64,000 nucleotides of DNA from contig SMSO01000031.1 of the NCBI GenBank assembly GCA_004764695.1, positions 8,662,761 to 8,726,760 on the forward strand, given 5' to 3'. This document shows, piece after piece, positions 4,691 through 28,177 of this stretch. Positions within the stretch are counted from its first letter, which is position 1; every line of letters begins with the position of its first letter. This DNA is from Schizochytrium sp. TIO01 (taxonomy: Eukaryota > Protista > Bigyra: Labyrinthulomycetes). The notes under the pieces were generated by a model. The model was not told the DNA's origin. It was given only the letters and a program-made list of their open reading frames with translations, and did not search any database. Both the position numbers and the translations under genes were made by a program.

Positions 4691-5185
4691 TTAGAGTCTT
4701 TTGGCCATACCCACCATATAGCTGTCAAGCTTCTTGCGGAAATTACTATTAGCAATCGGGGCACCTGGTTTAAACATGGGATCCTTGACCACCATATTTA
4801 CGTACAATTCAGAGTAGACATGGCGCAACGCGGTCTGAATATCCTTTAACAAATGGTCCGCACATTTATCCGTGTTGAGCACAAAACGAAGACCGGAGGC
4901 GGTCTCGTACTGATGCAATGTAAATTTATTCGTGGAAAAGGAGGTTAAGTTACCTCCAGTCTCGGGCGTCTCGATGCCATTTCCTACATTCGGATTCGTG
5001 GTTACATTATTGCTTGGCGAAAACTTACGTCCAAGCTGTTTCAAGGAGAAAAGAAGGCCAAATACCAGCTTAGCATCCTCATCTGGGTTGTCGGCAAGCG
5101 GATTATGCTCACGCGACCACTCCTGATAAAACAAGCAAACACCTCTGCGATCAAAGATGTAAAAGTTAAAGATTGAGAACACCAT
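4691..5185 (-). CDS. TRAPPC1: TRAPP complex subunit 1 (BET5, sybindin/longin-like)
   Basis: Translation has FYIFDRRGVCLFYQEW, KLVFGLLFSLK, FSTNKFTLHQYETASGLRFVLNTD, ALRHVYSELYV and VVKDP, all characteristic of Bet5/TRAPPC1. First ATG is at 5185; the ORF track starts upstream at a TTG. Confidence 0.92.
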   Translation of the reverse strand: MVFSIFNFYIFDRRGVCLFYQEWSREHNPLADNPDEDAKLVFGLLFSLKQLGRKFSPSNNVTTNPNVGNGIETPETGGNLTSFSTNKFTLHQYETASGLRFVLNTDKCADHLLKDIQTALRHVYSELYVNMVVKDPMFKPGAPIANSNFRKKLDSYMVGMAKRL

Positions 5186-8673: not shown

Positions 8674-9488
8674 TGAGCTTATCGCGATGCTCTGATGTTT
8701 ATCCGCAGCCGTGGATACTTCCATGATCATGACATTCATTCCACTACGCAAAGTTTCTGAACTACCTGAATAACCAAACTATCTCTTGTGCAGAGATTGC
8801 TCTAACTCTGCACCATGAAGTATCTTTTTTTTGTAATATTGTGGAGGAAAATATGCAAAAAAATGAAAAAAGAAAAAAAGTGGGGAAAAGCGGGAGGTTG
8901 CACTTTTAGTTAACCGGGTGAATATACAAGCAAGTACTAATTTACTTCTAGTACTCTTTTCAATCATCATTCAATACTGACTCCTTCACCTGTAGATACC
9001 CTAATGAGCCAAGAATTACTGCAAGGATGGGGTCCTTTTTGGGATGGCACATCTCGTATATCCACGAGTTTCCGAAGGCTCCATTGATGACAACTTGAAT
9101 CATATCTTGGGTGGTCATGAATCATCAAGAATCCAGAAATTGTGAGGAAACCATATCAGCTCAAGAAATTCTAGTTCTCGGTTCTTGTTTCCCGCCGAAA
9201 TCAGGTTTTCTTCTTCTAAGAGGAATAAATAAACAGTGTTATTACCAGGAAATGGCAGGCTCCACGAGTATGCAAACTGCCCATCGTCTCTTCTTTTTAC
9301 ATAGTGGCACAGCATACAGAAAGCGAGATAGACTTGAAGCAATTCCAGAGAATTCCAAGCAATGAAGAAGTTACAAGTAAACCAGCAAAGTAGATTATGT
9401 TTTTTTTAGCTTTTTGAAATCAAGAATCCCCAAACTAAAACAGATTCACATTTTGAAAGTAGGAAGGTACTCTTTTCCCAAGCTTCAT

Positions 9489-12400
9489 TTAAATATGAAG
9501 CTGGCGCCCAGACGACATTGTCTTTAAGCGACCGGGAGTTATACGGGAACCCCGCCTGGCCCCACCTTGATTCAACCTATATCCTCCGTTGAGTACTTCA
9601 GTTACTGATTGATCGCCTTCACCACCATGTTCATCGACCATATCAACGTTTTGTCCAGTGAGGATAATATTAGCATTTGGCATGTCAGCACGACGAGGTT
9701 CGGCTGCTTCAAGAACCGCTTCCGCACGATCAGCTTCTGGAGCGAACTCGAGGTTTTTCAGAGCCCACTGAACTGTTCGCACTCTTTCATGCAATAATAA
9801 TACAATTGAAAGTTCGGTAATCAGCTCGTTGTAGTCGGAACGATGAGCAATGCCATATCTTACCAAGTGTTCATCAACACGTGCAAGCTTCTCATGAAGT
9901 GGATCGCGAAGGTCATAATAGTAAAACTGTGGTCGCTCAACAGCAGTTATTTTATCACACAAAGCATTCCAATGTTCCTGAATAGAGTAAACTTTTTCTA
10001 AAGGGAGCGCACGTGGCCGTGGAGGCTCGAATAAGATGTCAGCAAGCTCCATAACAAGTTCAGAAAAGTTATGAACGCCGCCGCGTTCCGGCTTATCTAA
10101 AGAAAAGCGAAGCAGTAAGAACTCAAGCCGGGTCCGAGGTGTTAGTGAGAGCGTGTTTATATCATCAGCCTCTAGTTGCTGAGAATCAGTCTGACGTCTC
10201 TTTTGCAAGCACTCTAGTAGCATACTTTGATCATGCTCCTTGGCGACGGCACGGATCAAGTCCGCTTGTGATGAAATTGCATTGATTCGAAATTTACCGC
10301 CGGCGCCCTCCATAAATTTTTCGATAGGTAATTGAACCTCAGCTTTCATACCAACTGTCACATTGAAAAGGGATGATCGATGCTTCCCCAAGGCATCGAA
10401 ATTTCGCGAGCGCCACTTTAACTCTTGCATATGCTTTTCTAGGTCGTCCGCTACGTCTATTTCATCATCATCATCATCAATAGAACCTTGCTTTGCCGTT
10501 CGAGCCTTTTCGCGATGCGGAAGCTCTTTTCCGACTCTCATACTTTTCCGCTTGATGTCTTGTGCACGGCTTGCACTGCTATAAAGGTCCTCCAGAGCTA
10601 CTGAAACAGGATTATAAGGTTCAGCAATATGAAAAAGACCTTCCCGGAGTAAGCTAGAGCGATAGACAAGATCTTGCTTCATCTGACGTTTTGTTTCCTC
10701 AGCAAGACCTACGCTAACAATTCGTTCGGCGCTAAATGCGCTTAAGGTTGAGATAAGACCAATGCCGATTAGCATTAGAATAAACATTAAAATCTGTGTC
10801 TCGATCTGTGTCACCTTATAATCTCCATAACCAACCGTGGTGACGGTTACGAGGGCAAACCAAATCACATTGCTAAAATCTCGAAAATCTTCTTGATGGT
10901 TCTGCTCAAAAATTTTGATGAACACTGTGCAGATAAGAATGATTACTACCACAAATGAGGCTAAATAAGCCATTGGCTTACGGACCATCAAAGAGATAAA
11001 AATAGCCTGTTGGGTGAACCGGCGGTACAAACGAAACAAACGAAAACCCTTAAATAATCTCATTGCATCAGGAAACCACACCGCTGTCAAAGGGATCTCA
11101 GTCAGCATCGCAGGTATATCATACCAATTATCACTAAAAAATGACCTTACAGTCGGCAGTTCCTTTTTGTCTCTTGTTAAGCATCGAAACGTGAAATCAA
11201 GAAAGAAAATGCCAAAGTTAAACACATCGATCCAAATCAGAACTCGCTCTGTTTTAGCCGAAACACCTCCATAAGGAATCAAAGGTGCAACAGCAATAAT
11301 GATAGATATCACTGTTAACAATAGGACAAATGTTTCTGTAGCAACCCCAACACTCTTACTACGCTCTATTGCATGATCGTACCAAACTTGTGCTCGAAGG
11401 TCGGCTTCTTGCTCTTCTATCTCTGCATTATACTTATTACGAAAAGCAGCATTGATAGCTACAGCGGAAAGTCGCCGTGCTACATTTCCAATACGCGTTT
11501 TTCTAGTAATCGCCTTTGAAATCTTACTTTGCAGAGCTCGGTCTTGGGATAAAGTTTGAGGACCATTTTTTTGTGCTACTGGAGATAAATGAACAATTGG
11601 ACTACTGACAATGTTTGCCTGTGTTCCAGAACGACCAAACAAATTTACAGAGCTATCACTGTGTTCTTTTTCTGAGTTTATGTCGCCTCCAGCTCGATGT
11701 GGGCCAACCTTAGCTGTTCTCTGCTGCTGCACAGCCGAATAACGATGAACCTCAGTGGTGTTCTGATTACTCTCTTGCTCATGAATTTTCTGAGCGATTA
11801 GACTCCACCGCCTCTCGAGATATTCACGCATCTTAATGTGAAATAGAAATAATGCAGCGCATACTACCATGAATGTGACAAACACACAATACATGATTAA
11901 GTCGTCGTTCAGTCCAGGAAAATCAATAAAATCTCGTTCGTCAGCATACCCATCACCATCGGAGTCAAATGAAAATCCATAATTTACTGGAAAGTCATCC
12001 AAAATATCGAAAAGACCATCATTGTCTTTGTCTAAATCCATAAGCTCAAAAACTTTTGGTCCACCTTCATATAACTCGGCAAGCCATACAACAGTGTCCC
12101 GAAACACTGAAGCGTCGATTATTCTTTTTGTGTCATTGTATTCTGGACGCAGAGATGGTGCTTCAAGAGCACAATGCACTATTTGAAGAGCATCGGGACT
12201 CCTTTCTGTTGCTGCAGGAAGACTTTTAATTCGAATCAGTCGAAGCTCATCGTCGATTCCATTTGAGTTTTCCCCACGAAGAAAGTAAGTAAGGGCACTT
12301 TCGGAATCTCGGTGGCTAAGACTTATTTCTCGAGGCCACGTACTATTCTCAAGATCTTGAAAGTTACGAGCATTAGAGATCTCAGCAAAGCGAATCTTGT

Positions 12401-13595
12401 GCTCATTAGTGGCTGAATTCCTGACCACTACCAGTAAGAAATTACTGGCAAGAGTCATATCGATCAACTCATCAAATCCTTCATCTATCCAATCTGCGTT
12501 CCACAGTTTTGTATTATTCATACTTGGGAGTTGCACTATTGAGATAGACTCATCAGCCGCATTTCTCCATCCTGCGAAGCAGATTTCGGAGGATGTTGAC
12601 GACGAAGACAACGACGACGAGGAAGTCTCAACATGACTGGCTATGGGTAGCGAAGCATTGCGAGCTAGAATTTGAACAGAGTAATCAGAATTACTCAAGG
12701 TTCTCGCAAAAATCCCTGTGTTTCCATCCGAGTCAGTCGCCTGGTATATAATTGTATTTTCTCCGCAGTAAACGAGACTTTGTCTTATTATGATTGAGTC
12801 AATGTCTGTTAAATTGTCAGGTCCACTTAATGGCTCTCCGGAGTTTATCATATCTTCGGGTAAATTGGATAGTTTCTGGCGATCATACACCCGGATCACA
12901 GTATGCTCTTCAGACAAATATTCAATCCAGGCAAGATAATTACCTTCTGGACTTGCAAGGATAGAACGTGGATTCTTTGTATTTGTGGCAACGGGTCGAA
13001 GTTCTTCTGCATATGGCTTTTGAAAAATCCGAAAAATATAACATTGCTCGGAAAGAATCTCGTCATCTGCCGCATGTGGGACTTCTGGAGCTCCATCCAT
13101 GTCAAACGAGCAGGTAGCGACTCCCTCTTCGTAATCGGTGTAGTATAGCTCGGTATACTCCTGGTCCATGATAAGAGAGAAAACATGGAGATTTCCGTCA
13201 ATCGCATTTTGAGAGCAATTGGAGGAGTTGGACAGATTCCATACTTCGCAAGTATCGAAATAGCTAATAGCGTCCCCCGTGAATGTCAGGATTGAAGGTC
13301 TACTATGATGATCCCATCTCGCTGTGTGCTCGTTTCCGGCATCCAGTACTTGTGTCGTCAGCCGTTTAGGTGCGAGTGGATGTGTGATTGTTCGAATTGC
13401 TTTATAATCGCGTTCTTTGAAGGATACATAACTTGGATTGCAGACTTCCACTCCGTTTACATATACAGGTCGCCACCATGTACTTTTAGGCACAAATGCC
13501 TCCGCTTGTTGTGGTGCCAGCAGGTGAACTAAGTTCGTTACAATAATCAGGAGGGCTTCTACCGAGTACCTGGATGACTGGCATCGACACCTCAT
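9489..13595 (-). CDS. 6TM voltage-gated-type K+ channel fused to a large N-terminal ectodomain with TSP type-3-like repeats and an extra TM helix
   Basis: 1368-aa ATG ORF. K+ filter TTVGYGD at 10821-10841; S4-like MRLFKGFRLFRLYRR; S1-S3, S5 and S6 hydrophobic helices; N-terminal signal-like peptide; DKDNDG and DSDGDG motifs (about 11945-12040) just before a TM helix IMYCVFVTFMVVCAALFLF. Confidence 0.9.
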   Translation of the reverse strand: MRCRCQSSRYSVEALLIIVTNLVHLLAPQQAEAFVPKSTWWRPVYVNGVEVCNPSYVSFKERDYKAIRTITHPLAPKRLTTQVLDAGNEHTARWDHHSRPSILTFTGDAISYFDTCEVWNLSNSSNCSQNAIDGNLHVFSLIMDQEYTELYYTDYEEGVATCSFDMDGAPEVPHAADDEILSEQCYIFRIFQKPYAEELRPVATNTKNPRSILASPEGNYLAWIEYLSEEHTVIRVYDRQKLSNLPEDMINSGEPLSGPDNLTDIDSIIIRQSLVYCGENTIIYQATDSDGNTGIFARTLSNSDYSVQILARNASLPIASHVETSSSSLSSSSTSSEICFAGWRNAADESISIVQLPSMNNTKLWNADWIDEGFDELIDMTLASNFLLVVVRNSATNEHKIRFAEISNARNFQDLENSTWPREISLSHRDSESALTYFLRGENSNGIDDELRLIRIKSLPAATERSPDALQIVHCALEAPSLRPEYNDTKRIIDASVFRDTVVWLAELYEGGPKVFELMDLDKDNDGLFDILDDFPVNYGFSFDSDGDGYADERDFIDFPGLNDDLIMYCVFVTFMVVCAALFLFHIKMREYLERRWSLIAQKIHEQESNQNTTEVHRYSAVQQQRTAKVGPHRAGGDINSEKEHSDSSVNLFGRSGTQANIVSSPIVHLSPVAQKNGPQTLSQDRALQSKISKAITRKTRIGNVARRLSAVAINAAFRNKYNAEIEEQEADLRAQVWYDHAIERSKSVGVATETFVLLLTVISIIIAVAPLIPYGGVSAKTERVLIWIDVFNFGIFFLDFTFRCLTRDKKELPTVRSFFSDNWYDIPAMLTEIPLTAVWFPDAMRLFKGFRLFRLYRRFTQQAIFISLMVRKPMAYLASFVVVIILICTVFIKIFEQNHQEDFRDFSNVIWFALVTVTTVGYGDYKVTQIETQILMFILMLIGIGLISTLSAFSAERIVSVGLAEETKRQMKQDLVYRSSLLREGLFHIAEPYNPVSVALEDLYSSASRAQDIKRKSMRVGKELPHREKARTAKQGSIDDDDDEIDVADDLEKHMQELKWRSRNFDALGKHRSSLFNVTVGMKAEVQLPIEKFMEGAGGKFRINAISSQADLIRAVAKEHDQSMLLECLQKRRQTDSQQLEADDINTLSLTPRTRLEFLLLRFSLDKPERGGVHNFSELVMELADILFEPPRPRALPLEKVYSIQEHWNALCDKITAVERPQFYYYDLRDPLHEKLARVDEHLVRYGIAHRSDYNELITELSIVLLLHERVRTVQWALKNLEFAPEADRAEAVLEAAEPRRADMPNANIILTGQNVDMVDEHGGEGDQSVTEVLNGGYRLNQGGARRGSRITPGRLKTMSSGRQLHI

Positions 13596-14550
13596 TCCCG
13601 CAAGTTCGTGTCGTCGCGAACCCTAGCAAAAGGATTCGCTCGCCGCCATGTGTCTTGGGTCTACTCCCGCTGATTTGCGACCCCATCTATCCACCTCTGT
13701 GCTTTTCCTGCATTCACTACAGCAAGCGAGCACCACTATATGTAGCAGTTGACCACCGCCTCTGTAGATAATTGTATAAACATGGTATAGAAGTAGTCCC
13801 CGCCGTAACGGCTAGTCCTCGGAAGTGTACTTTCATAGTATCAAGGTTCATAGGTGCCTATTGTTAGTGTTCAAGCTATGTAAGGTTATGCAGCTATATG
13901 TCCTCGTCGCTGAGTTATGGTTTACCTGTCGCTAGTGAACCTGCAAGTTCAGGAAAGCTGGTTGGCAAGAACGATCCCCTACTGGTAATTGCACTTGCAA
14001 AAAGAAATAAAATTACTTAATACTTTGCACACCAGGACATTTGAGTTGTTGAACCAGTTTTTGTGCAATTACAGGCAAGGCAAGGCAAGCTCTCTCCTGG
14101 TCTATTCTAATCAGCTTCCAGTAATACAGCAACCCGTGGCAACTCTCGCTGGTTCTCGGGCTACTGTTTTTCACAGCCGGTTTGCATCTCCTTCTTTTTT
14201 TGGATTGGAGATGAGACAATCAAAAGAAAAAAGAAACCGAAGAAAGAAACTACATCAATGTTTGATGATTAATCACGCCACTAAAAGAGAAATAACAGAA
14301 TCACCCTTCAAAATACGAAGTATCTTCACATGTGCTGATCCATCGCTCTTTGTTGAAAAAGCAGCTTTTCAACCTCTTCCAACGACACGAGGACAAGCAT
14401 CTCTGGACAAAATCCAGAACGAGCTAGGTAACCCTTCTTGATGATTTCTTTTTTTTTCAACGACGACTTCAAGTTGAGAAAAAAATGAAAACGAGAGAAA
14501 TGTTCTGAATGTTCTATAAGATCCACGTATTCTTAGTGGACTAGCTTGTT

Positions 14551-14638
14551 GAGAGCGGCGTAACTCACGGACTCACTCTCTCTACGAGGGACTCGAGAGC
14601 GGCGTAACTCTCGGCCTCACTCTTTCTACGAGGGACTT
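14551..14638. repeat. Tandem duplication, 2 x 44 bp
   Basis: gagagcggcgtaactcacggactcactctctctacgagggactc followed by gagagcggcgtaactctcggcctcactctttctacgagggactt; 4 mismatches. Confidence 0.92.
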
Positions 14639-14749
14639 GAAAGCATAGACTTCGGCTCGCATGAGCATAAACCTAACTCACCATCGCCAAGCCCGTCCGT
14701 AGTACTAGTCGTTGCTTCTCAGCGTGCAGTGTGCTCAGCCATAGGACGA

Positions 14750-15379
14750 ATGTCAGCAAGGCAAGTTGGAGCAAAGACTTTGAGCCCCTTGGCTAGCAAC
14801 AAGCTGCAAGCAGGACACTCGAGCTCACAAACTGATGGCGCGTCTCAAAAGATGGAGGTCATTGAAGTCTACGATGAAATTGATGTAGCTACGCTGCGAC
14901 TTCAGATGGCAGATTATCCCAATGAGCACGATGTCTTCTTTGGTTTGCCCTCTAACTCGAAGTGGAGACCCTCCATCAATTTGACACGCGATGCAGCTGG
15001 AAACTACGAAGTCAAGTCTTGTGAATTGACTTCTATTGTGCTGAGTTTATACTTGATGCCAGGAGTTACAGCCAAGGTCTTTGAGATGAGAAAGGGTAGA
15101 ACGAATCCTCTTTTAAGTTACTCACTCCTGCCAAGTGCCACGCCAAAGTGGCAGAACTTCCCAATCTTGAACACGAATGGTTTATGGGGATACATCATCA
15201 CCTTTCACCAGTGCTACGGGATTTATAGGATTGCCAATCCGATTGAAACTAGATTGCATGATGAATCCACCAGGGCAGCAAGAGAAAACCTTGGCTTCAC
15301 TGACTTTGTCGATGAGTATGATTTCCTCACGAGTGAAGCTATATTTGCTGAAAGAAAGATTTTACTGTCCTTCGTGTAA
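14750..15379 (+). CDS. Hypothetical protein (~209 aa), no family recognised
   Basis: Longest ORF in the interval, ATG at 14750, composition typical of a globular protein after a low-complexity N-terminus. Confidence 0.6.
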   Translation: MSARQVGAKTLSPLASNKLQAGHSSSQTDGASQKMEVIEVYDEIDVATLRLQMADYPNEHDVFFGLPSNSKWRPSINLTRDAAGNYEVKSCELTSIVLSLYLMPGVTAKVFEMRKGRTNPLLSYSLLPSATPKWQNFPILNTNGLWGYIITFHQCYGIYRIANPIETRLHDESTRAARENLGFTDFVDEYDFLTSEAIFAERKILLSFV

Positions 15380-15484
15380 GTCTCGTGGAAGCCCTCCTCG
15401 GTGGCTCCAGCTTGTAAGCAATATATCTCTGCATTGTTTTAAAGCGAGATTTTGGGATTGCTCGTTTGCAAATCCAACTTCATA

Positions 15485-15487
<3 letters not shown>

Positions 15488-15515
<28 letters not shown>
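15488..15515. repeat. (AT)n microsatellite
   Basis: About 14 perfect AT units. Confidence 0.95.
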
Positions 15516-15523
<8 letters not shown>

Positions 15524-16604
15524 CATTCTTAGTAGATTCAAAAACGATCGTTGTTCATTTCCTACATCTAATCTCTTCTCGAGGTATACGCATGCCTCTT
15601 AGGAAGCCGCATCTGCAGCACGACGCAAATGTTTTTTCCATTCCCAGTAAGCTAAGAAAATGATTGTCAAGCCCATACGTCTATTCCGGCTCTTTAGGGG
15701 GCCATTTGACGTTTCCAAACAATACTTCTGCTACATCGAATCTTTCTTGCTCCCTGAAGACTTCAATCAAACCACTCTCCCTAAGGAAGTTTCATTTTAT
15801 TTTGACAATAAGATTATTTGCTCACTCCCTCGATGACTCATACTGCTTACTTTCCTAGCTTTAAGAATGGTACCCATCACTTGTTCGTCAGGGATAGTCA
15901 TTTGGCCATATTACACACGGCTGCAAGCAAACTAAAGACAATCAACCATGGCTGCTACCCTGTTGTACTTCTTCCAAACACCTCGTCTCATTCTCGTAGC
16001 ACGTAAGCTTACGGTTCTAACGCAATCTAGGATCATTTTTAACAACTGGCTAACAAAAAAGTAAGTAATTAATTAAAACCCACATTCCAAGAGTTCGCGA
16101 GGTGTTGCTTGCCTGGGCTTTAGGAGCGCTTGAGGTCCAAACTTTCTAACTTTGCACAATTATTTTCCAAATTCGATCAAATTTATGATTTGACTGCCAC
16201 AATCATCACACTCTTCATGCATGAACCCCCCCCTCTCTATCTTCAAATCTTCACACCTCTTCTTCTTCTTCTTCTTCTTCGATCTTTCGCACATTCCCAT
16301 GCAAGTTTTTTAATGTTCAAGATCACAATGTGGCCTCATGTCACTGTTAGAGCACTTAACATTCGCACCATATCCTCTTATACGCTCTTAACAAAGTCCT
16401 ACCTAGCATTGTCGGCAATGGGCAAAATAAAAATACATACATACGCGTACAGCCAACAGCACGCAAGGCGTCATCAAAGCCCAAACGAGCGGTCGAGACA
16501 AGTTGGGTGGCGATCAGCTTGAGCAGGACTGCCGGCGACTAAGTCTGCGTTGGAATTAGAGCTGGGTTTAGCCTTGGGAAGACAAAGGCCCCGGGGTTGC
16601 GTCA

Positions 16605-17453
16605 ATGGGCTCTAAGAAGCGCACTTTTGCCGGCGCCACTCGTAGTGGGGATGGCGAAGCTACTTCCTCTACAGCTACTACTTCCGCTGTAAAGGTCGTT
16701 TCTGGCGAACAAAGAGATCAAGGTGAAGAGCTGATTAATGAGGGCTTGGAGATCTCTGGCGAGCGGAATGCAAAGCAAGTTCGTAAAAATGCGGCTTTGC
16801 ATGTAGGTGGAGAAGAAAACCCCTTTGCGATACTTGACGAAGAAGTTTTTGCCGAGATCGACGGGTATAAAGTGTCGAACGAGGTGAAGCGTAAACTCCG
16901 CGAAGAAAATCGTATTGAGGAAACTGTAGCTTTGACATATGGCGAGATTAGATGCACATCATTTGCAGAGCTGCTCAATGAGTTTTTGCCAGAATGCCGT
17001 GGGTTCTTTGTGGATATTGGCTCAGGAACTGGTAAGGCGGTGCTCACAGCTGCAATGAGCGGGTTTTCTAGATGCCTAGGTGTAGAAATCGTGGGTAAAC
17101 TTCATGACTGTGCAATGACGGGTTTTGCGCGTGCTAAGGGAAAGGAAGGTTTGATCCCTGACAGTGCCCAGATCGAGTTCATTGTAGGAGATAGCTTTGC
17201 AAATGTTGATAAGTGGCAAGGTGCAGATGTTATCTTCGCCCCCACAACATGCTTTACAGATGAACTGATGGAACAATTGAGTGCATCATTAAAGAAAGTG
17301 AAACCGGGTGCTTATATCATCAACACCACCCGCATGATTAAATCCAACGATGTCAAACTGATTTCAAAAAAGAGATCCAGATATGCACGAGGCTCATTGG
17401 AGTTTATGCTCTGGAGGCGAGTACCCATCCCACCTACCACTGAGGAAAAGTGA
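16605..17453 (+). CDS. Class I SAM-dependent methyltransferase, DOT1-like
   Basis: LTYGEI, motif I FVDIGSGTGKAV, GVEI, EFIVGDSF, ADVIF and LKKVKPGAYII match the pattern of compact DOT1-like proteins. Substrate not established. Confidence 0.82.
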   Translation: MGSKKRTFAGATRSGDGEATSSTATTSAVKVVSGEQRDQGEELINEGLEISGERNAKQVRKNAALHVGGEENPFAILDEEVFAEIDGYKVSNEVKRKLREENRIEETVALTYGEIRCTSFAELLNEFLPECRGFFVDIGSGTGKAVLTAAMSGFSRCLGVEIVGKLHDCAMTGFARAKGKEGLIPDSAQIEFIVGDSFANVDKWQGADVIFAPTTCFTDELMEQLSASLKKVKPGAYIINTTRMIKSNDVKLISKKRSRYARGSLEFMLWRRVPIPPTTEEK

Positions 17454-17677
17454 AGGTAGAAGAGTTTATTGCTGCGGAGAATAGGAATAGGACGATATGG
17501 CGGCAAGAATCGAAGCAGAAAAATAATCAGATATAGTGAGGGTATGGAATATTCGTTAAGAAGAGCTCTTATATTCTCCTTTTAGCAATCCAACTGAGGA
17601 AAGATGATTTTCTTTCAGGTAGAAATTCACAAACAAACAATATAAAGAATACATGAAGAACACAAACACAACGAGAG

Positions 17678-18856
17678 CTATTCACTCTCAGGGTAATGTC
17701 GAACGTTATGAAAGACAGAGACTGTTGTACTCAATGCAGCGCTCGCAAAGAAAAAAGCAAGTTAGTGGTTCAGTTCCACCCACCATTCTTCATTTCCATT
17801 CATCATCCAATACAACCGTGCCCAAATTAACGCCTGCACTTACCGTTGGCTTGGTCAAAGTAGTTGATATTGAGGTTCCGTGCAATTTTCTGGCCGAGCC
17901 TGTTTCATTATACGAAAAATGAAAGCGGACAAGCTTTTTGTGTTAGTGCTCGTAATCTTTTCAATGTATACTTGATGGCAACATGCACAGCAACGTTTAG
18001 AGGATTTAAACTTAGCCTGGGATCCAAAACCAAGATAAATACTTGATGCTCGCTACCTGCAATTGCCGTACAATAAGGCAATGTTTGCTTGAGGAAGGGA
18101 CTTTAACATTATGGGGGTTGGTAGTAGCTAACACCTTCTGTGTGCTGAGCGAGACTGGGTCAGGCTTAAATAAGGACTTACCTTCGTAAAGACCGGACGT
18201 CTGAGGATGGTCGTTTTGTAAGCACGTGACGATCAATTTTAACACCGTCAAGAACTAGCTCATATTTAGGAATCTCATTGGAGCTGGCACCAACCTGAAG
18301 TATGCGATTAAGACGAATATAAATGTTGTGATAACCACTTGTAATAAAATCTGATCCAACGATGAAAGAATAAACCTTGTTTTCCTCATCCAGGAGGTAA
18401 ATGCGTTCATGCCGGTAATTGACAAACACAGCGATTGCGTGAATCAAAGCCGTTATGACGTAAACGAAGATGCTATTGTTCACGCTCCATGTGGCTAACA
18501 TTAAAAGCAATATAGCTAAACATACTGCAATTGTGATTTGCGAACTCTTCTTCTTCTTGTATGGTTTTCGAAGCGTAAACATGCGCGACCTATCTTCGAA
18601 CGAAAGACCTAGCTGAAATGGATGAAAAGGGTTGAGAAGGATGTCAGCCTGAAGTAGCTCTACCGGGCTTCTCTTGTCTCTCGCAAAGAAGCGACGAATC
18701 CTAATGAGCAAAAACAAATGTTGTGCCTGTGCTGTTAGCGTACAATGATTGTCTTCTTCGTTTTTCTGACATCAGATTTTTGGGCCTGGCCAAGCTGATG
18801 CCTTGGGCCCGAAACATACAAGCTCGATGCTTCTAGACGTACCTTTTCGGGATCAT
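17678..18856 (-). CDS. TMEM249: TMEM249 / CATSPER-theta-like protein, 4 exons (18856-18843, 18700-18182, 17899-17844, 17721-17678), 210 aa
   Basis: Three GT-AG introns with consistent phases (2,2,1) and donors GTACGT, GTAAGT, GTAAGT; 633 nt spliced CDS. Product has NPFHPF, two TM helices, RIYLLDEENKVYSF, YHNIYIRL, YELVLDG, LGQKIARNLNINYFD and HNVRHYP. These are colinear with recalled human TMEM249 motifs (NSFYPF, RRLVLNH, LHLVYVRL, FHLVLGG, LGRYIARKLNINYFD, HVVRHWP). Confidence 0.85.
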
Positions 18857-19841
18857 GATTTGTGCTGCCTCTTCTCTAAGTTTACAATGCTCGTAGTATG
18901 CAAGTCAAATCAAGTCAATAGTTCCTTTCTCTCTACTGGTGCTTCCGTCGATCAGTCCGGTCCAACTTGCTGGACTAGACAAGCGAAATATATTCCAATC
19001 CTCTGTGCCGCTTTCAACAGCAAGTATCGCAGCCCATCTGCGACCTGTTTTATTCGGCCGCTTTCTACGCGCCCAAATATTACTCTGATTCTTTTGCTCG
19101 CGAATTCTATATTACAGTACAGTTCCGTTACGGTATGCTTGTCTCGGTGCCCATTAAAGGTAGTTACTAGAGGGTCTACTACCCCTCTAGATAGTGAACT
19201 ACTAATACAACCCTCCCTCCTTGGACTTAATATTTAATGTAGCATATTACTTTAGATGATATCAACGCAGAGGCCGTTCCTATTTGTGTAGTATATATAG
19301 AACTGTAGGACTAGTTTTGCTGTAGAACTGAGAATTCCGAGTTCTTCCTGACTTAAAAGAGTATTTTTAAGCTTCTTCAAAGAGCTCAGAGATGATGTCG
19401 AGATGTTCACAAGGATTGAGATTCTACGACCTATATAATTCTGTCGAGTGAGCGAAAAATACACAAACAAATTGCTAAAATCACAAGTTGTATGTTCAGC
19501 AGGAGAGAATTTCTGAGAAGTAAGAAACTAGGCAGGTACATAGTCATGTGAGTAATATGGCCAAAAAGGAAAAGAGGTCTAATTCACAATAGGCCATTTA
19601 GCGGTTGGCTGGCTGGAGAGTATGTCGAACTGAGTGGTGGTGGTCGATGAAGAATTGGGAGTAGAGATTGACAGCAACGCCCATTCATCCATCAGTCCAT
19701 ACATCCGAGGGGAAATCCTCTTCGGACGGAGGCGTGGAGCTGGAGCTGACTTGGGTTGCTCCGCTCTGCTTTGAAGTGGAGTTCTTACTTTTGTACCTGC
19801 TGTGTTCGTTGAAGTCATCTTAACCTGAGTCGCTTGAGGCC

Positions 19842-21719
19842 ATGGCGACCTCTGACGCACGTACGCCCAAGAGCGCCAAGAAGCGCGACAATGGCGCCAA
19901 GAGCACCTCGAAGAAGAGCACTTCGAAGAAGATGAAGAAACTTGAAAAAGAGGTCTCTGCTGAGGAGGAAGAGTACCTTCTGGAGAATGATAACAACGAT
20001 GGTGCCATCGATACCTATGACGATGAAATTGCTGCTGAGAACCGTGAGCTGGCTGGGGACAGCGACGTGGCTGACGACAACGACGACGAGAAGGATACCG
20101 AGGCTGCTGCTGAGAAAGCTCTGAGTAGCAAGAAGAGGAAGAAGTCCAGCAAGAAGGCCGAGGAAGAGGAGGAGAATGGCGACGAGACATATGAACTCGA
20201 TGACAGTGGAGCGAAGAAGGGATTCTTCTCCGAGACCAAGTTCGCAGACCTGGACCTTTCAGAGAAGACACAAAAAGGCCTCAAGGATGGCGGCTTTGAG
20301 CGCCTGACCCAGATTCAGCACAAGGCTATCCCAGCCTTGCTCCAAGGCAGCGATCTCATCGGTGCCGCCAAAACGGGCTCCGGTAAGACACTGGCGTTCC
20401 TCATCCCCGCTGTAGAGCTCCTTGCCCGCGTGAGTTTCAAGGCACGCAACGGCACAGGTGTAGTGGTCATCACCCCCACCCGTGAACTCGCTCTCCAGAT
20501 CTACGGTGTTGTGCTTGAGGTCTGCAAGCACCACTCCCAGACCACCGGCATTGTTATTGGAGGTGCCAACCGCCGTGCAGAAGCTGATCGTCTCCAGAGC
20601 GGTGTAAACCTGCTCGTCAGCACCCCGGGTCGTCTCTTGGATCACCTCCGCAATACCAAGGGATTTATCTTTAAGAACCTGTTGTGCCTCATTATTGATG
20701 AGGCTGACCGTATCCTTCAAATTGGTTTTGAGGATGATATGAAGCAGATTATTAGCCTGCTCCCGCAGGAGCGCCAGACCGTGCTCTTTTCGGCTACCCA
20801 GACCAAGAATGTGCAAGACCTCGTCCGCCTCGCTGTCAAGCGGAAGCCGGTGTTTGTGAGTGTCCATGATGAGGAGAAGACTTCCACCGCTGCTGGTCTC
20901 GAGCAGGGATACGTTGTGTGCCCTTCTGAGAAGCGCTTCCTACTCTTGTACACGTTCTTGCGTAAGAACCGCAAGAAGAAGATCATGGTCTTCTTCAGCT
21001 CCTGCAACAGTGTCAAGTTCCACTCAGAGCTCTTGAACTTTGTGGATCTGCCTGTTAAGGACATCCACGGCCGCCAGAAACAGCAAAAGCGTACGACCAC
21101 ATTTTTTGAGTTCTGTAATGCTCAGTCCGGAACTCTTCTCTGCACAGATGTTGCTGCCCGTGGTCTTGATATTCCCAACGTTGATTGGATTATTCAGTTT
21201 GACCCTCCTGATGATCCCAAGGAATACATTCACCGTGTCGGTCGTGCCGCTCGTGGTGCCACTGGCCGTGGTCGCGCACTGCTCTTCCTCATCCCTTCGG
21301 AGCTTAAATTCCTTCAGTACCTTCGCCGCGTCAAGGTCACTGTTAACGAGTACGAGTTCCCTGCCAAGAAGGTTGCTAATGTTCAGTCTCAGATGGAAGA
21401 CCTCGTACAGACAAACTATTACTTGAACCGCTCCGGTCGCGATGCCTACAGGTCGTACCTTATGGCTTACTCCTCGCACGCACACAAGGATATCTTTGAC
21501 GTCCACAACCTCGACCTTCAGGCTGCTGCTAAGGCTTTTGGCTTTTCCGTGCCTCCTTCCGTGAACCTCAACATCAAGACCTCCGGCCGCAACGCTCGGG
21601 CCCGCGACCAATCAGACGACCCTGTCAAGCGTCGCAAACTTCAATCTGGCCACGCGTTCTCTGCCACGAACCCGTATGGCAAGCGTGCCTCTGGTGACAA
21701 GAGGCAATTTGTCAAGTAA
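19842..21719 (+). CDS. HAS1: ATP-dependent DEAD-box RNA helicase HAS1/DDX18
   Basis: [70 protein letters not shown] and the DDX18-type C-terminus; strong C/G-ending codon bias. Confidence 0.97.
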
Positions 21720-23440: not shown

Positions 23441-24190
23441 CTGCCTGATCTCACGCTGGGTTGGTTTCGTCGCTGAGTTGATTGAATTTGATGGATTTCT
23501 TGATTGATTGATTGATTGGTTTCTTTCTTGTTTGATGTTCGCTTGTTCGTCGCAGGCACGATTTCCTGACCGCGACTACGCCCACAGTGGAGATGCCGTT
23601 GTGGATCTCTCCCGCAGTGAGCCTCCACACAGAGTCACACAGCTTCCCGCAGCCAGGTGCTGAGGCTCTGTTCCGCAATGCAGTTCATCTCTTATTTGTT
23701 GCCGCTACTTGCACCCTGAATAGCCTTCGTGGTGGCCAGCTTCTTTGCGCCTACGTTGCAGACAGAGAGTCACGCTGACGCCTTTTCTGCGCAAGGGTCG
23801 AGGTGAAGCGCAGTGCTGTCGTCAGATGGTTACCTAGGTTCTTAGAATTTTTAATTCTTACTTCAAGTTGTTTAGTGTTGTTATGTTTCAAGTTATTCTT
23901 TTGTTGTTTATTTATTGTTTTATTTTTGAAACTTATTTTCAAGTTTGAGCATTAAAAGGCATATTTTGTAAGATAGCAGTTACCTAGCAAGTAACTAACG
24001 ATTTATGTTACTGTTATTGTTTATGAGAAAAGAGGGGAAAATGTAATGTCAAAAGCATCATTGGGTATTTCTTGACTTGCATAATACGACACGGAGAAAA
24101 GAGTAATCGCGATCGAAGTCGTTTGAGGCAAAACTCTAACATACTCGAGTCGCCGAGAGCACCTTCGGCATCGTTGGTGTCCTCGTGACC

Positions 24191-27100
24191 ATGAAATCCT
24201 CGTGCTGTGGAGTGCTCTGTAGCCGCGGAAGTTGCTCATCCGGTGACGGCATGCTCACCATAAGAAGGAGGCCTAGCCGAAGACTTCATGCCACACTCCC
24301 GAAGACCTTTGCAACGACCTTGGTCCTTATTCTTGTGGTCCTTGCACTCGCCCTGAACCGTAGCACGGCGCTGAAAGTGCCCAGTGTGAGAAGGTCTGCG
24401 ACAAGTATTAATGATGCTGCTTCAGAACCTGCTTGGGCCGTTCAACAGAACCAGAAAATTGACCCACAAGACCCTCCTGGAACGCAGGATAGAGCGACTT
24501 CTAGAGTAATTGTCATTGGAGCAGGGTACTCAGGACTCTCAGCAGCATGTGAGCTGCGCAGACTTGGACATGATGTCTTGGTCTTAGAGAAGAATGACTA
24601 TGTGGGTGGCAGAGCTCATCAGTTTGAAGTCAAAGCTGATAACGGACAGACCTTCAAGTTCGATGCAGGGCCCAGCTGGTACTGGATGCCTGAGGTCTTC
24701 GATCGATTTTTTGCACGATATGGCCGTAAAGTTGAAGAGTTTTACACGCTAGAAAGGCTTGATCCAGCGTACAGAATCATTCGTTCTGAAGAAGAAGCAA
24801 CACTTGATGTGCCGGGGGCCTCGGAGGAGGCCTTTCTCAGCTGGGCACGCAAGCTTGAAGGTGAGTCAAAAGGAGGCCTCCTAGACCGCATGATGGACGA
24901 AGCTAAAGAAAAGTATGAAGAGGGTATTTTTAAATGGATATGGCACCCGATGGTGTCCATTTGGGAAATGGTCGATTTCAACCTTATGCGTGCACCTTTC
25001 CAGTACGACATGTTCAATGGCTACCTGGCACATCTTCAAAAGTATATTTCTAATTCAGATCTACTTACGGCGCTAAAATGGCCTGTTATCTTCCTTGGTG
25101 CGTCACCACACTCTGCACCAGCAATGTATTCCCTTATGACGTATGGCGGCCATGCACTTGGAACCTACTACCCTAGTGGAGGGTTAAGCCGCCCTGTCAT
25201 GGCAATGGCCGAGCTAGCCGAAGAGCTTGGTGCAGAAATTCGCCTAAACGCTGAAGTAGATCACTTTGAACTTGATGAGAATCGGCAAGGAATTCGTGCC
25301 GTATGTATGTCAGATGGAAGCTGCGTCGAAGGCAGTGGAGTAGTAGCCTCTGCTGACTATCATCACGTGGAGCAAAACCTTTTGCCGCCGCACCTAAGGC
25401 GATACTCCGAAGCGTACTGGGACTCGCAAATTATGTCTCCAAGTTGTCTACTGTTCTACCTTGGTTTCGATCGCAGCATCAACGGTTTACTGCACCACAC
25501 CTTTTTTTTTGACATTGACTTGGACAAGCACCTCAGAGCAGCCTTTGCAGACCACACATGGACTACAGAACCTGCATTTTACGTTTCAGCGACATCCAAA
25601 ACAGACCCTTCCGTGACTTCGGGAGATGGTGATGGAGAGGCGCTGTTTGTTCTTGTTCCTGTCTCCTACCAGCTCAATGGGACTGATAGTGATGCACTAC
25701 GCGAGGAACTTTTGAACATTATCATGAAGCGAATGGAGCAAAACCTTGATCAGCCATTGCGTGAGTGGCTAGTTTATAGCCAATCCTATGGAATGTCTGA
25801 CTTTGAAAATGACTTTCATTCTTACCGTGGTAATGCCTTTGGACATGCCAATACTTTAGCGCAATCACTTGTGCTAAAGCCATCAATGGATTCCCTTGCT
25901 ACTAATTTAGTCTTTGCTGGTCACCTTACCAATCCCGGGCCAGGTGTTCCACCGGCAATTGTTTCTGGCGCTGTCTCAGCCGAACTTCTGCATAACAAGC
26001 TTGAGCGCGCCCATGGTAGCGCAGCCATGTATTCGCATTTTTTGAGCCTCCTCGTGGGGTTATTTAGTAGTAGTTGTGTAGTATTATACCTCTGCTCGAC
26101 ACGAATCGTGTCTTATATTGAATGCGTCAAACTCTTATATGAACACGGCCGAACTTATTTTGCAGCAGCAACCCTCATGAGCCCGCTCGCTTTCTTGGAT
26201 ACTGCTGCTATGTATGGTTTGTTCCGCGTTGCTGATGATTATGTTGACAATACTTCTGAAGCAAATCAACGGCAGCAAAATCTCGATGCGTTTATCGCAG
26301 ACTTCTGGAATTGCTGGGAGAGGAAAAAAGGTGACTACAATAAACACCCAACGCTACCCGCTATTATTGAGTCAGCTCACCGTAGAGGCTATCCCAAAGA
26401 ACTTTTTGATCGCTTTTTTCGCTCCATGCGTATGGACTCAACGTCTCAATTAGTCTGCAGAACAATGGATGATACTATGGCGTATATGGAAGGCAGTGCG
26501 GCCGTGATTGGGGAGTTCATGCTTCCTATTTTGATGCCAGATGCGACTCCTGACGTATATCGTCGCGCCTTACCACACGCACGGGATCTTGGGCTTGCCT
26601 TCCAAATCACGAATATGCTTCGCGATATTGGAGAGGACTACAATCTAGGCCGCCAGTACATTCCTGTGGAAATATGTAAGCGCCATGGAATAGACGGCCC
26701 GCTCGTAAGCCACCATCAGCCGGGCTTTAGCAGCCTCATGGAAGACATGTTTTCCTTTACAGATCATCTTTACGCAAGTGCCGATATTGGCATTGGGATG
26801 TTGCCAGAGAAGGTTCGAGATGTTATTCGGGTGGCCCGAATCGCATATCACCGTATCCACGACAAAATCCGCCAAGCAGAATATGATATTTTCTCTGACC
26901 GGCGGCGCGTCCCACTTGTCGAAAAACTGGGCATCCTCGTGAATACGGTTCCTGCATCTAAACTTACTCGAATTGCTGTCACAGAGATTTTCTGTGCGAC
27001 AATCTACCTTCTCACGCGCCCATACATTGCTCTAGTATGGTTCGGTGCCTTCTGGGCATCTTGGTTTTCATGGCCACAATGCACATATTTGAAATTTCAC

Positions 27101-28177
27101 CTTGTGTTTATTATTCCTCCACTTACCTTACTGATGTACAATGCATATCAGCGTGCGGTTGCGGATAAACAACTCAGATTTTTCCGCCAAGCTGTTTTCT
27201 GGGGTGGCATTCTCTGCATTGTGGCGACTGTTTATACCACCCCTTGGGACAACTACCTCGTTTATAGTACGGTTTGGAACTACCCACCAGAACGTATCTT
27301 ATTCGTTCTGGGTTATGTTCCTATTGAAGAATACATGTTTTTCTCGCTGGAGACGATGCTTGTTGTTGCAGTTTGGCTACATGTATTCAAAAGTACGACT
27401 CTGCAAGAGGAAGTTCAGAAGCCAGCTCGGGGGGGGGGTATACTGCCACTATTGGGTCTCATCGTTGCATGGTGTGTTGGTTTTTACATGTTGCAGCATG
27501 AGCAGACCTTGTACATGGGCCTAATTTTGAGCTGGGGCATGCCCGTGCTCATACTGCAGTGGGTTCTAGGCGCCCACGTCCTTCAAAAGCACGTTCGCCC
27601 TGTGACAATAGTGATACTATGCTCGTTCTCATATCTGTGTATAGTTGACACTTGGGCGATTCAACAGGGCATCTGGCATCTTAGTTCGCGAAATTTGTTA
27701 CAACCTGTAGGCAACTATACTCTGCCTCTAGAAGAGGCCCTGTTCTTTCTGGTGACATCAACCATGTGTACATGGGGCCTCACACTGGCAATTGCCCTCT
27801 GGGGACGGCACATTGGTATCGCAATTTCTCTTCCATCGTTACACGCTCAACCAAGGCGAACGCACCACATGTGGCGTCTTACTCATATTGTGAAGCATGG
27901 AGTTATTTTATTCACAGTTATTGCTCACCCATCGATGTATCGATTTATTCCAGTTTCCCTAGTGACTTGCTTACGGTTTTTGGCTTGGACAGATCTAGTA
28001 GCTGCCCTTCTCCTGCTGTCATCCTGGGAGATCCTTCAATACTTTGGGTTCGCTTTGCTTCTCTTTTTCACCCCATACCCAGTCTTGACTGTTCTGATCT
28101 ATTTGTTGATTTTCGGCGCGGTCTTACCTAAACATGGAGTAGATTCTGATAGTTTACCTTTGTATAAAAAAGCCTAA
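24191..28177 (+). CDS. crtIBY: Trifunctional carotenoid synthase: phytoene desaturase (CrtI) - phytoene synthase (CrtB) - membrane lycopene cyclase (CrtYc/d)
   Basis: CrtI FAD motif VIVIGAGYSGLSAA...EKNDYVGGRA, FDAGPSWYWMP and TNPGPGVPPAIVSG; CrtB motifs RVADDYVD and AFQITNMLRDIGED; two CrtY repeats TTPWDNYLV...PIEEYMFF and VDTWAIQQGIW...PLEEALFF. Intronless. Start is ATG 24191 or 24251. Confidence 0.96.
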   Translation: MKSSCCGVLCSRGSCSSGDGMLTIRRRPSRRLHATLPKTFATTLVLILVVLALALNRSTALKVPSVRRSATSINDAASEPAWAVQQNQKIDPQDPPGTQDRATSRVIVIGAGYSGLSAACELRRLGHDVLVLEKNDYVGGRAHQFEVKADNGQTFKFDAGPSWYWMPEVFDRFFARYGRKVEEFYTLERLDPAYRIIRSEEEATLDVPGASEEAFLSWARKLEGESKGGLLDRMMDEAKEKYEEGIFKWIWHPMVSIWEMVDFNLMRAPFQYDMFNGYLAHLQKYISNSDLLTALKWPVIFLGASPHSAPAMYSLMTYGGHALGTYYPSGGLSRPVMAMAELAEELGAEIRLNAEVDHFELDENRQGIRAVCMSDGSCVEGSGVVASADYHHVEQNLLPPHLRRYSEAYWDSQIMSPSCLLFYLGFDRSINGLLHHTFFFDIDLDKHLRAAFADHTWTTEPAFYVSATSKTDPSVTSGDGDGEALFVLVPVSYQLNGTDSDALREELLNIIMKRMEQNLDQPLREWLVYSQSYGMSDFENDFHSYRGNAFGHANTLAQSLVLKPSMDSLATNLVFAGHLTNPGPGVPPAIVSGAVSAELLHNKLERAHGSAAMYSHFLSLLVGLFSSSCVVLYLCSTRIVSYIECVKLLYEHGRTYFAAATLMSPLAFLDTAAMYGLFRVADDYVDNTSEANQRQQNLDAFIADFWNCWERKKGDYNKHPTLPAIIESAHRRGYPKELFDRFFRSMRMDSTSQLVCRTMDDTMAYMEGSAAVIGEFMLPILMPDATPDVYRRALPHARDLGLAFQITNMLRDIGEDYNLGRQYIPVEICKRHGIDGPLVSHHQPGFSSLMEDMFSFTDHLYASADIGIGMLPEKVRDVIRVARIAYHRIHDKIRQAEYDIFSDRRRVPLVEKLGILVNTVPASKLTRIAVTEIFCATIYLLTRPYIALVWFGAFWASWFSWPQCTYLKFHLVFIIPPLTLLMYNAYQRAVADKQLRFFRQAVFWGGILCIVATVYTTPWDNYLVYSTVWNYPPERILFVLGYVPIEEYMFFSLETMLVVAVWLHVFKSTTLQEEVQKPARGGGILPLLGLIVAWCVGFYMLQHEQTLYMGLILSWGMPVLILQWVLGAHVLQKHVRPVTIVILCSFSYLCIVDTWAIQQGIWHLSSRNLLQPVGNYTLPLEEALFFLVTSTMCTWGLTLAIALWGRHIGIAISLPSLHAQPRRTHHMWRLTHIVKHGVILFTVIAHPSMYRFIPVSLVTCLRFLAWTDLVAALLLLSSWEILQYFGFALLLFFTPYPVLTVLIYLLIFGAVLPKHGVDSDSLPLYKKA

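What the first reader, a model, noticed from the sequence alone, without database searches (positions are those of the whole stretch)
17678..18856. Hidden 4-exon homologue of the sperm CatSper subunit TMEM249 (CATSPER-theta) in a protist
Seen in sequence: the 179-aa ORF-track fragment extends through three canonical introns to a 210-aa protein, and the most diagnostic motifs (LGQKIARNLNINYFD, HNVRHYP) lie in two tiny downstream exons. Established: TMEM249 is an auxiliary subunit of the mammalian sperm-flagellar CatSper Ca2+ channel, involved in higher-order assembly of the complex; CatSper pore subunits have been reported in Aurantiochytrium, which makes flagellated zoospores. Inference: this accessory subunit, and perhaps the ordered CatSper arrays it supports, predate the split of stramenopiles and animals and act in zoospore flagella. 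The homology is judged from recalled human motifs. It is the only multi-exon CDS I could build here, so automated annotation could easily truncate it.
Basis: partly seen in the sequence, partly recalled or inferred. Interest (0 to 1): 0.8.

Follow-up and report, generated by a model that had tools for sequence, protein, structure and literature searches.

The report
Sperm-channel helper gene in marine protist
A marine single-celled eukaryote carries a four-exon gene for TMEM249 (CATSPER-theta), a helper protein of the animal sperm calcium channel, which likely helps build a similar channel in its swimming spores; the family turns up in most major eukaryote groups, but it was already recorded outside animals.

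Summary
Confirmed. The four exons give a 210-aa protein. Exon 2 alone passes Pfam TMEM249 (37 bits, cut-off 25), and a profile of homologues finds mouse TMEM249 in CatSper structures (E 2e-31). Intron 1 is spliced in RNA-type contigs of two studies. Introns 2 and 3 were unspliced in 8 of 8 runs laid, probably masked by an overlapping opposite-strand transcript; they rest on homology. Losing exons 3-4 abolishes the pairwise match to vertebrate TMEM249, and the Hondaea annotation stops exactly there. Homologues occur in named protists and fungi of most supergroups. Published source data already list the gene in Thecamonas and Tritrichomonas, in no stramenopile, so deep age is implied in print and the lineage is new. 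CatSper pore genes in this genome could not be tested; ancient ordered arrays are unsupported. Side lead: the fold resembles the assembly factors EROS and Ycf4. The scan found a TMEM249 gene before on other DNA. New member of a known kind.

The parts
18857..19104 (-). 5' untranslated part of exon 1 (at least to 19104)
   Evidence: Contig of run X5 continues from the spliced intron 1 to 19104; in-frame stop upstream of the ATG
18843..18856 (-). Coding part of exon 1 (14 nt, start codon)
   Evidence: transcript-derived homologue P0055 aligns from residue 10 and has a comparable N-terminal extension
18701..18842 (-). Intron 1, 142 nt, GT-AG, CTAAC branch motif
   Evidence: Spliced in contigs of runs X5 and X10 from two studies; unspliced in X1 and in a depth-2.7 piece of X16
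18182..18700 (-). Exon 2 (519 nt): N-terminal helix, transmembrane hairpin, most of the beta-sheet domain
   Evidence: PF15158 E 3.7e-9, 37 bits; model pLDDT 93.6; both strain variants in it are synonymous
18493..18558 (-). Predicted transmembrane helix 1 (residues 53-74)
   Evidence: Model helix H48-69 of the exon-2 segment; hydropathy peak
18418..18474 (-). Predicted transmembrane helix 2 (residues 81-99)
   Evidence: Model helix H76-94; hydropathy peak
17900..18181 (-). Intron 2, 282 nt, GT-AG, CTAAC branch motif; in-frame stop at its start if kept
   Evidence: Sequence; gap-free alignment of uninterrupted homologues across it; 8 strain variants incl. a 5-nt deletion; not seen spliced in 8 of 8 runs
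17844..17899 (-). Exon 3 (56 nt): most conserved stretch, C-terminal helix and NYFD motif
   Evidence: Found blind by homologue profile, E 2e-8; mean identity 63% to 30 full-length homologues against 28% for exon 2
17722..17843 (-). Intron 3, 122 nt, GT-AG, CTAAC branch motif
   Evidence: Same position and phase in relative L001; not seen spliced in 8 of 8 runs
17678..17721 (-). Exon 4 coding part (44 nt) with H..RH motif and stop codon
   Evidence: 10 of 11 aligned residues identical to P0004; mean identity 45% to 30 homologues; +17.5 bits
16572..17453 (+). Convergent neighbour, DOT1-like methyltransferase ORF; RNA-type contigs run from it across exons 4-2 of the TMEM249 gene
   Evidence: PF08123 E 1.2e-13; contigs 16492-18699 (X5) and 16504-18699 (X10)

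Best explanation
The locus is an intact four-exon gene for a 210-aa TMEM249 (CATSPER-theta) protein of a thraustochytrid-like protist, which likely serves as the assembly scaffold of a CatSper-type calcium channel in the flagella of its zoospores. Shown: gene structure, family membership, transcription with intron 1 spliced, descent within its own protist clade. Predicted: two membrane helices interrupt a cytosolic PH-like beta-domain that is completed by the helix encoded at the exon 2/3 boundary. Inferred from mouse: the cytosolic domain binds the C-terminal tail of a CATSPER4-type pore subunit, stabilises it in the channel and licenses transport to the flagellum; the channel then admits calcium that changes the beat. 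The pore subunits, the location and the swimming role were not tested here.
For: Pfam PF15158 above cut-off; profile hits mouse TMEM249 chains 9ubw_J E 2.3e-31 and 7eeb_J E 7.8e-29, next hit E 0.042; the joined protein hits Anolis TMEM249 at E 2.9e-6; model of full-length close homologue P0006 has 9ubw_J as best match (Foldseek E 1e-6, TM 0.57/0.68; Z 10.4, rmsd 3.4, 163 aligned). Variants 2 of 633 exon nt, both synonymous, against 11 of 546 intron nt, Fisher p 0.009. Tmem249 co-evolves with CatSper genes over 1,256 genomes and its cytosolic domain binds the CATSPER4 C-terminus (PMC10523455 passages). Three fungi that the published table lists with CatSper2-4 but no theta (Allomyces macrogynus, Catenaria anguillulae, Rhizoclosmatium globosum) do have family members in my searches. 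All named carriers are, from my own knowledge, organisms with flagella or flagellated stages (Sanchytrium with a reduced one). Thraustochytrid zoospores are biflagellate (PMC12221091 passages).
Against: No CatSper pore or beta/gamma/epsilon gene could be looked up in this genome; their presence in Aurantiochytrium limacinum is recalled from Cai et al. 2014, which I could not read, and only indirectly touched by PMC5362262 passages. Introns 2 and 3 unspliced in 8 of 8 runs, including the same contigs that have intron 1 spliced. Exons 3+4 alone show no significant variant deficit (0 of 100 against 10 of 404, p 0.22). The exon-2 protein alone finds no PDB sequence and its model ranks EROS above mouse TMEM249. 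The protein sits on a long branch, so its partner may have changed. A zoospore proteome paper on A. limacinum never mentions CatSper in its text or in 4 supplements searched.
Confidence: 0.7

Rival explanations
1. The protein is a real TMEM249 orthologue but works without CatSper here, as an EROS-like assembly chaperone for some other membrane complex.
For: Fold and language-model likeness to EROS and Ycf4, both assembly factors of other membrane complexes; long branch to the protist clade; transcript seen in runs of unknown life stage; pore genes untested.
Against: Tight co-evolution with CatSper genes in print; the conserved C-terminal motifs match mouse TMEM249 residue for residue in the profile alignment; no EROS or Ycf4 Pfam match among the 25 families shown for 34 members.
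Confidence: 0.17
2. The gene is transcribed but usually keeps introns 2 and 3, giving a 178-aa product without the last helix or no product; full splicing is rare, stage-limited, or the gene is fading.
For: Introns 2 and 3 unspliced in 8 of 8 runs; in X5 and X10 one contig holds spliced intron 1 and unspliced introns 2 and 3.
Against: Those contigs run on through the whole opposite-strand DOT1-like gene, as expected when unstranded assembly merges two overlapping transcripts and drops the rarer form; splice signals, frame and motifs of exons 3-4 are intact and are the most conserved part; intron 3 is kept at the same place in relative L001. A stage-limited full splice is compatible with the best explanation.
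Confidence: 0.1
3. The gene came from an animal by contamination or recent transfer.
For: Family clusters in the Atlas are almost all chordate.
Against: Groups with Hondaea (100/99) in a 10-row clade (100/97) apart from the 17-row clade with the named animals (100/100); the stretch is held by 24 listed runs of 13 studies; neighbours include a crtIBY-like fusion; named protists score higher than any animal.
Confidence: 0.02

Closest known systems
Mouse/human CATSPER-theta (TMEM249), Pfam PF15158, chain J of PDB 7EEB and 9UBW/9UBX
   Same: Family match, two-helix membrane hairpin, cytosolic beta-domain, C-terminal LG..LA..L.INYFD and H..RH motifs, similar length.
   Different: About 25% identity to a vertebrate member; ATG start, whereas mouse uses CTG (passages); host is a protist with zoospores; partners and location untested.
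Catsperq entries of Thecamonas trahens and Tritrichomonas foetus in the Fig. 3 source data of PMC12638846
   Same: Same family outside animals, beside CatSper pore and beta/gamma/epsilon genes; Thecamonas protein recovered here as P0029.
   Different: That table has the gene in 0 of 28 stramenopile rows and holds no labyrinthulomycete; it also leaves three fungi blank that do have it.
Hondaea fermentalgiana hypothetical protein FCC1311_057442 (P0001)
   Same: 66% identity, sister in the tree, carries a precomputed PF15158 label.
   Different: Annotated as 167 aa, ending exactly at the exon-2 end, so without the exon 3-4 motifs; its genomic exons were not seen.
EROS (CYBC1, PF15169; PDB 8KEI chain D) and Ycf4 (PF02392)
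   Same: EROS is described as a PH domain split by two helices (passages); second-best Foldseek match to the full-length model (E 4.4e-6), best to the exon-2 model (E 1.4e-5); Atlas scores 0.91 and 0.87; all are assembly factors of membrane complexes.
   Different: TM 0.37/0.44, Z 5.8, rmsd 6.0, 8-14% identity; no Pfam match among the families shown; different clients (NOX2, photosystem I). Common ancestry is a lead, not shown.

Membership tests
TMEM249 / CATSPER-theta (PF15158) | Score above the Pfam gathering cut-off | tested here: met
   37 bits against 25 for the exon-2 frame alone
TMEM249 / CATSPER-theta (PF15158) | Sequence link to experimentally known members | tested here: met
   Profile A2 to mouse chains E 2.3e-31 and 7.8e-29; joined protein to Anolis TMEM249 E 2.9e-6. 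The exon-2 protein alone finds none.
TMEM249 / CATSPER-theta (PF15158) | Two transmembrane helices between cytosolic N- and C-terminal parts | tested here: met
   Hydropathy and model helices; prediction only
TMEM249 / CATSPER-theta (PF15158) | Same fold as mouse TMEM249 | tested here: met
   Met for the full-length homologue P0006 (48% identical): best match 9ubw_J, Z 10.4, rmsd 3.4, 163 aligned. The window's exon-2-only model is weaker: TM 0.47, Z 6.0.
TMEM249 / CATSPER-theta (PF15158) | Reciprocal best hit with human TMEM249 in whole proteomes | not testable with these tools
   No genome of this organism held
CatSper channel complex subunit | CATSPER1-4 and CATSPERB/G/E genes in the same genome | not testable with these tools
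   No genome; genome index gave no answer
CatSper channel complex subunit | Binds CATSPER4; sits in the flagellar membrane; needed for channel trafficking | not testable with these tools
   Mouse results only (PMC10523455 passages)
CatSper channel complex subunit | Expression limited to the flagellated stage | tested here: inconclusive
   Transcript with spliced intron 1 in two studies, life stage not on record, contigs only
CatSper higher-order (zigzag) arrays | beta-beta, gamma-gamma and eta-eta contacts between channel units | not testable with these tools
   Those subunits were not retrieved; contacts described in PMC12799140 passages
EROS / Ycf4 assembly factors | PH-like domain split by a transmembrane hairpin | tested here: inconclusive
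   Foldseek E 1.4e-5 and 4.4e-6 but Z 4.5-5.8 and rmsd 4-7; Atlas 0.91 and 0.87
EROS / Ycf4 assembly factors | Sequence match to PF15169 or PF02392 | tested here: inconclusive
   Neither is among the 25 of 38 families shown for 34 members at E up to 1; none for the window protein

The most novel reading that the evidence does not exclude
CATSPER-theta was already part of a flagellar CatSper channel in the last common ancestor of eukaryotes, descends from the same split-PH, two-helix family of membrane-complex assembly factors as EROS and Ycf4, and still gates assembly of a working CatSper channel in thraustochytrid zoospores, which would give a culturable, transformable microbe in which to study a channel that cannot be expressed heterologously.
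Probability: 0.35. Interest if true: 0.72.

Novelty: new member of a known kind. Interest (0 to 1): 0.4.

Why it matters
CatSper cannot be functionally expressed in heterologous cells (PMC5362262 passage), so it is studied almost only in mouse and human sperm. A protist with mass-produced zoospores that keeps the theta assembly factor would be a microbial test system, if the pore genes are there. The spread of theta over animals, fungi, holozoans, apusozoans, amoebozoans, CRuMs, malawimonads, metamonads, discobans, rhizarians, stramenopiles, archaeplastids and provorans argues for an origin near the root of eukaryotes, against a review that still calls CatSper a post-LECA invention (PMC7935092 passage) and in line with earlier work on other subunits. 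It also shows a practical trap: dropping two tiny exons removes the pairwise match to vertebrates, so presence/absence tables undercount the gene.

Tried and rejected
Genome-wide check for CatSper pore genes: no genome held; the genome index answered busy six times. No run was on record as RNA, only guessed. Eight of 24 listed runs were laid; none showed introns 2 or 3 spliced; X1 is unspliced over genes and spacers alike and may be DNA. Homodimer prediction for P0006: no verdict, score 0.02. Exon-2 protein against PDB sequences: no hit. Wide structure search with the exon-2 model gave only middling helical-hairpin matches, best Z 8.3. First Atlas search had low recognition (2180) and mostly unnamed prokaryote-labelled clusters, TMEM249 at rank 9; treated as weak. 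An intron shared with animals was considered and rejected: loci L003 and L005-L008 have a donor one base upstream, in another phase. Cai et al. 2014 not held; supplement of PMC10523455 and the main supplementary PDF of PMC12638846 too large to read, and figures are not visible, so Fig. 1/S1 of the former and the distribution figure of PMC5362262 may hold non-animal records that I did not see. The window's own Ion_trans gene (9489-13622) has a potassium-channel-type pore motif and was rejected as a CatSper pore subunit. PMC4820453 says oomycetes have 'CatSper homologs' (passage) while the OrthoDB-based table shows none; not resolved here.

Full report
Observation. On the minus strand, 18856-18843, 18700-18182, 17899-17844 and 17721-17678 give 633 nt, 210 codons and a stop. 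The introns of 142, 282 and 122 nt have GT donors, AG acceptors and CTAAC branch motifs 38-47 nt from their ends. An in-frame stop lies upstream of the ATG. If intron 2 is kept, the protein ends at 178 aa.

Splicing, by RNA. No listed run was on record as RNA; 18 of 24 were guessed to be, and I laid 8 of them, all assembled contigs. Four cover intron 1. In X5 and X10, from two studies, exactly these 142 nt are skipped, with ends that read GT-AG on the minus strand, so the gene is transcribed and the 5' exon reaches at least 19104. X1 and a depth-2.7 piece of X16 are unspliced there. Introns 2 and 3 are unspliced in 8 of 8 runs, also in the contigs with spliced intron 1. Those contigs run on to 16492-16504, through the plus-strand DOT1-like gene (16572-17453). 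The simplest reading is that a long transcript of that neighbour overlaps the last exons in antisense and wins in unstranded assembly. That is inference; real intron retention is not excluded.

Splicing, by homology. P0004, an uninterrupted 200-aa protein, aligns across exons 2, 3 and 4 without a gap at either joint (15 of 18 and 10 of 11 identical). Its cluster mate P0055 is a complete transcript ORF, 52% identical over 204 columns. A profile of 32 homologues, built without the window or Hondaea, picks exon 2 and exon 3 as the best 2 of 3477 six-frame segments of the window. Exon 4 alone is not significant (E 4.4) but continues the profile; scores are 212.4 bits for four exons, 194.9 with intron 3 kept and 150.2 with intron 2 kept. 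Among the 30 homologues that cover both small exons (rows lacking them were dropped), mean identity is 63% in exon 3, 45% in exon 4 and 28% in exon 2. Locus L001 has intron 3 at the same position and phase. Strain variants fall 2 in 633 exon bases, both synonymous, and 11 in 546 intron bases (p 0.009); for exons 3 and 4 alone the deficit is not significant (p 0.22).

Family. The exon-2 frame scores 37 bits on PF15158 (cut-off 25). An exhaustive search gave 46 hits; of the 44 new ones scanned, 42 match PF15158, 41 above the cut-off, and 2 do not. The profile finds mouse TMEM249 in the CatSper structures at E 2.3e-31 and 7.8e-29, the next hit at 0.042; the exon-2 protein alone finds nothing in PDB. 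The joined protein matches Anolis TMEM249 at E 2.9e-6 and the truncated form at E 1e5 (for 1e8 sequences).

Distribution. Of 30 hits looked up, 13 carried an organism name: Ploeotia, Lapot, Syssomonas, Allomyces, Gefionella, Chromosphaera, Diphylleia, Ancoracysta, Cyanophora, Sanchytrium, Rhodelphis, Thecamonas, Mastigamoeba. Further searches named Carpediemonas, Aduncisulcus, several chytrids, echinoderms and vertebrates. Their placing in supergroups and their having flagella are from my own knowledge. In a 60-row tree (rows chosen for length from the hits; fragments left out; bootstrap not fully settled) the window pairs with Hondaea (100/99) in a 10-row clade (100/97), apart from the clade with the named animals (100/100); deep branches are unresolved. 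The organism is thraustochytrid-like by this and by a crtIBY-like neighbour; its genus was not tested.

Structure and mechanism. The exon-2 model (pLDDT 93.6) shows a helical hairpin at residues 53-74 and 81-99 followed by a beta-domain. In the full-length homologue P0006 (pLDDT 94.7) the stretch matching the exon 2/3 boundary is a 15-residue helix, so truncation would leave the domain incomplete. That model's best match is mouse TMEM249 (E 1e-6, TM 0.57/0.68; Z 10.4, rmsd 3.4, 163 aligned). In mouse, the cytosolic domain binds the CATSPER4 C-terminus and the knockout loses the channel from the flagellum (PMC10523455: first 10,000 characters and passages; preprint passages). I infer the same job in zoospore flagella (0.7). 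The pore genes could not be sought; their presence in Aurantiochytrium limacinum is recalled from Cai et al. 2014 (not seen), and PMC5362262 (passages) says only that this species was screened and that CatSper1-4, beta, gamma and epsilon predate the unikont-bikont split. A zoospore proteome paper (PMC12221091: passages and 4 supplements searched) does not mention CatSper. The claim about ordered arrays has no support here: PMC12799140 (passages) assigns the contacts to beta, gamma and eta.

A side lead. EROS, a chaperone with a PH domain split by two helices and likened to Ycf4 (bioRxiv 10.1101/2023.09.11.557130, passages), is the best Foldseek match of the exon-2 model (E 1.4e-5) and second for the full-length model (E 4.4e-6). 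The Atlas ranks EROS (0.91) and Ycf4 (0.87) after TMEM249 (0.95). Against it: Z 4.5-5.8, rmsd 4-7, no Pfam match among the families shown. No listed paper holds both names (7 of 10 listed, 30 of 34; listings only).

What is in print. The Fig. 3 source data of PMC12638846 (passages; parts 12 and 13 of 16 of the file plus searched rows) list Catsperq in Thecamonas trahens and Tritrichomonas foetus, so an origin deep in eukaryotes is already implied. It is absent from 0 of 28 filled stramenopile cells, that is, none of the 28 stramenopile rows has it, and no labyrinthulomycete is included; Allomyces macrogynus, Catenaria and Rhizoclosmatium are blank there although members exist. A review still places CatSper after LECA (PMC7935092 passage). 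Searches for TMEM249 with CatSper (17 of 19 listed), TMEM249 alone (40 of 48 listed), CatSper with Aurantiochytrium, zoospore, EukProt or LECA, and a six-term search (listings) showed no paper on a stramenopile theta; subscription papers and unread supplements may hold one. Other passages read: PMC4820453, PMC13358043, bioRxiv 10.1101/230292. The scan noted a TMEM249 gene in another protist before, with the same verdict.

Verdict. A real, well-built observation and a correct family call. New for stramenopiles as far as I could see, and part of a wider unrecorded spread, but a new member of a known kind whose ancient origin is already implied in published data. Interest 0.4.

Noticed in passing
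window 16572-17453 (+) and 17454-18700: RNA-type contigs from the DOT1-like gene run 0.8-1.2 kb past its stop, across exons 4-2 of the TMEM249 gene on the other strand, in all 8 runs laid: a long convergent overlap that could dampen the TMEM249 gene in some stages.
   Followed up: partly
window 24140-28177 (+): Phytoene desaturase plus phytoene synthase fusion, crtIBY-like; such a fusion is reported for thraustochytrids (PMC10016063, listing only).
   Followed up: no
window 9489-13622 (-): 1377-aa ORF with a long N-terminal repeat-like region, a short acidic calcium-binding-like stretch and a potassium-channel-type Ion_trans domain; an unusual architecture.
   Followed up: no
window 6907-8673 (+), 19824-21719 (+), 14564-15379 (+): CNNM/CBS metal transporter, DEAD-box helicase, and a 271-aa ORF without any Pfam match.
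   Followed up: no
P0006 model; PDB 8KEI_D, 7W5Z_B: TMEM249-family fold resembles EROS and, at Z about 8, part of chain B of Tetrahymena complex IV; the Atlas also lists Ycf4 and unnamed 150-200-aa clusters labelled cyanobacterial or archaeal.
   Followed up: partly
P0045 (Sanchytrium tribonematis): A TMEM249 member in a fungus whose zoospores, from my own knowledge, have only a reduced, non-swimming flagellum.
   Followed up: no
L003, L005-L008: Unnamed intron-rich loci have an intron one base upstream of the window's intron 3 position, in phase 0: near but not identical.
   Followed up: yes
P0031: TMEM249 domain joined to WD40 repeats in a 1031-aa protein; may be a gene-model fusion.
   Followed up: no
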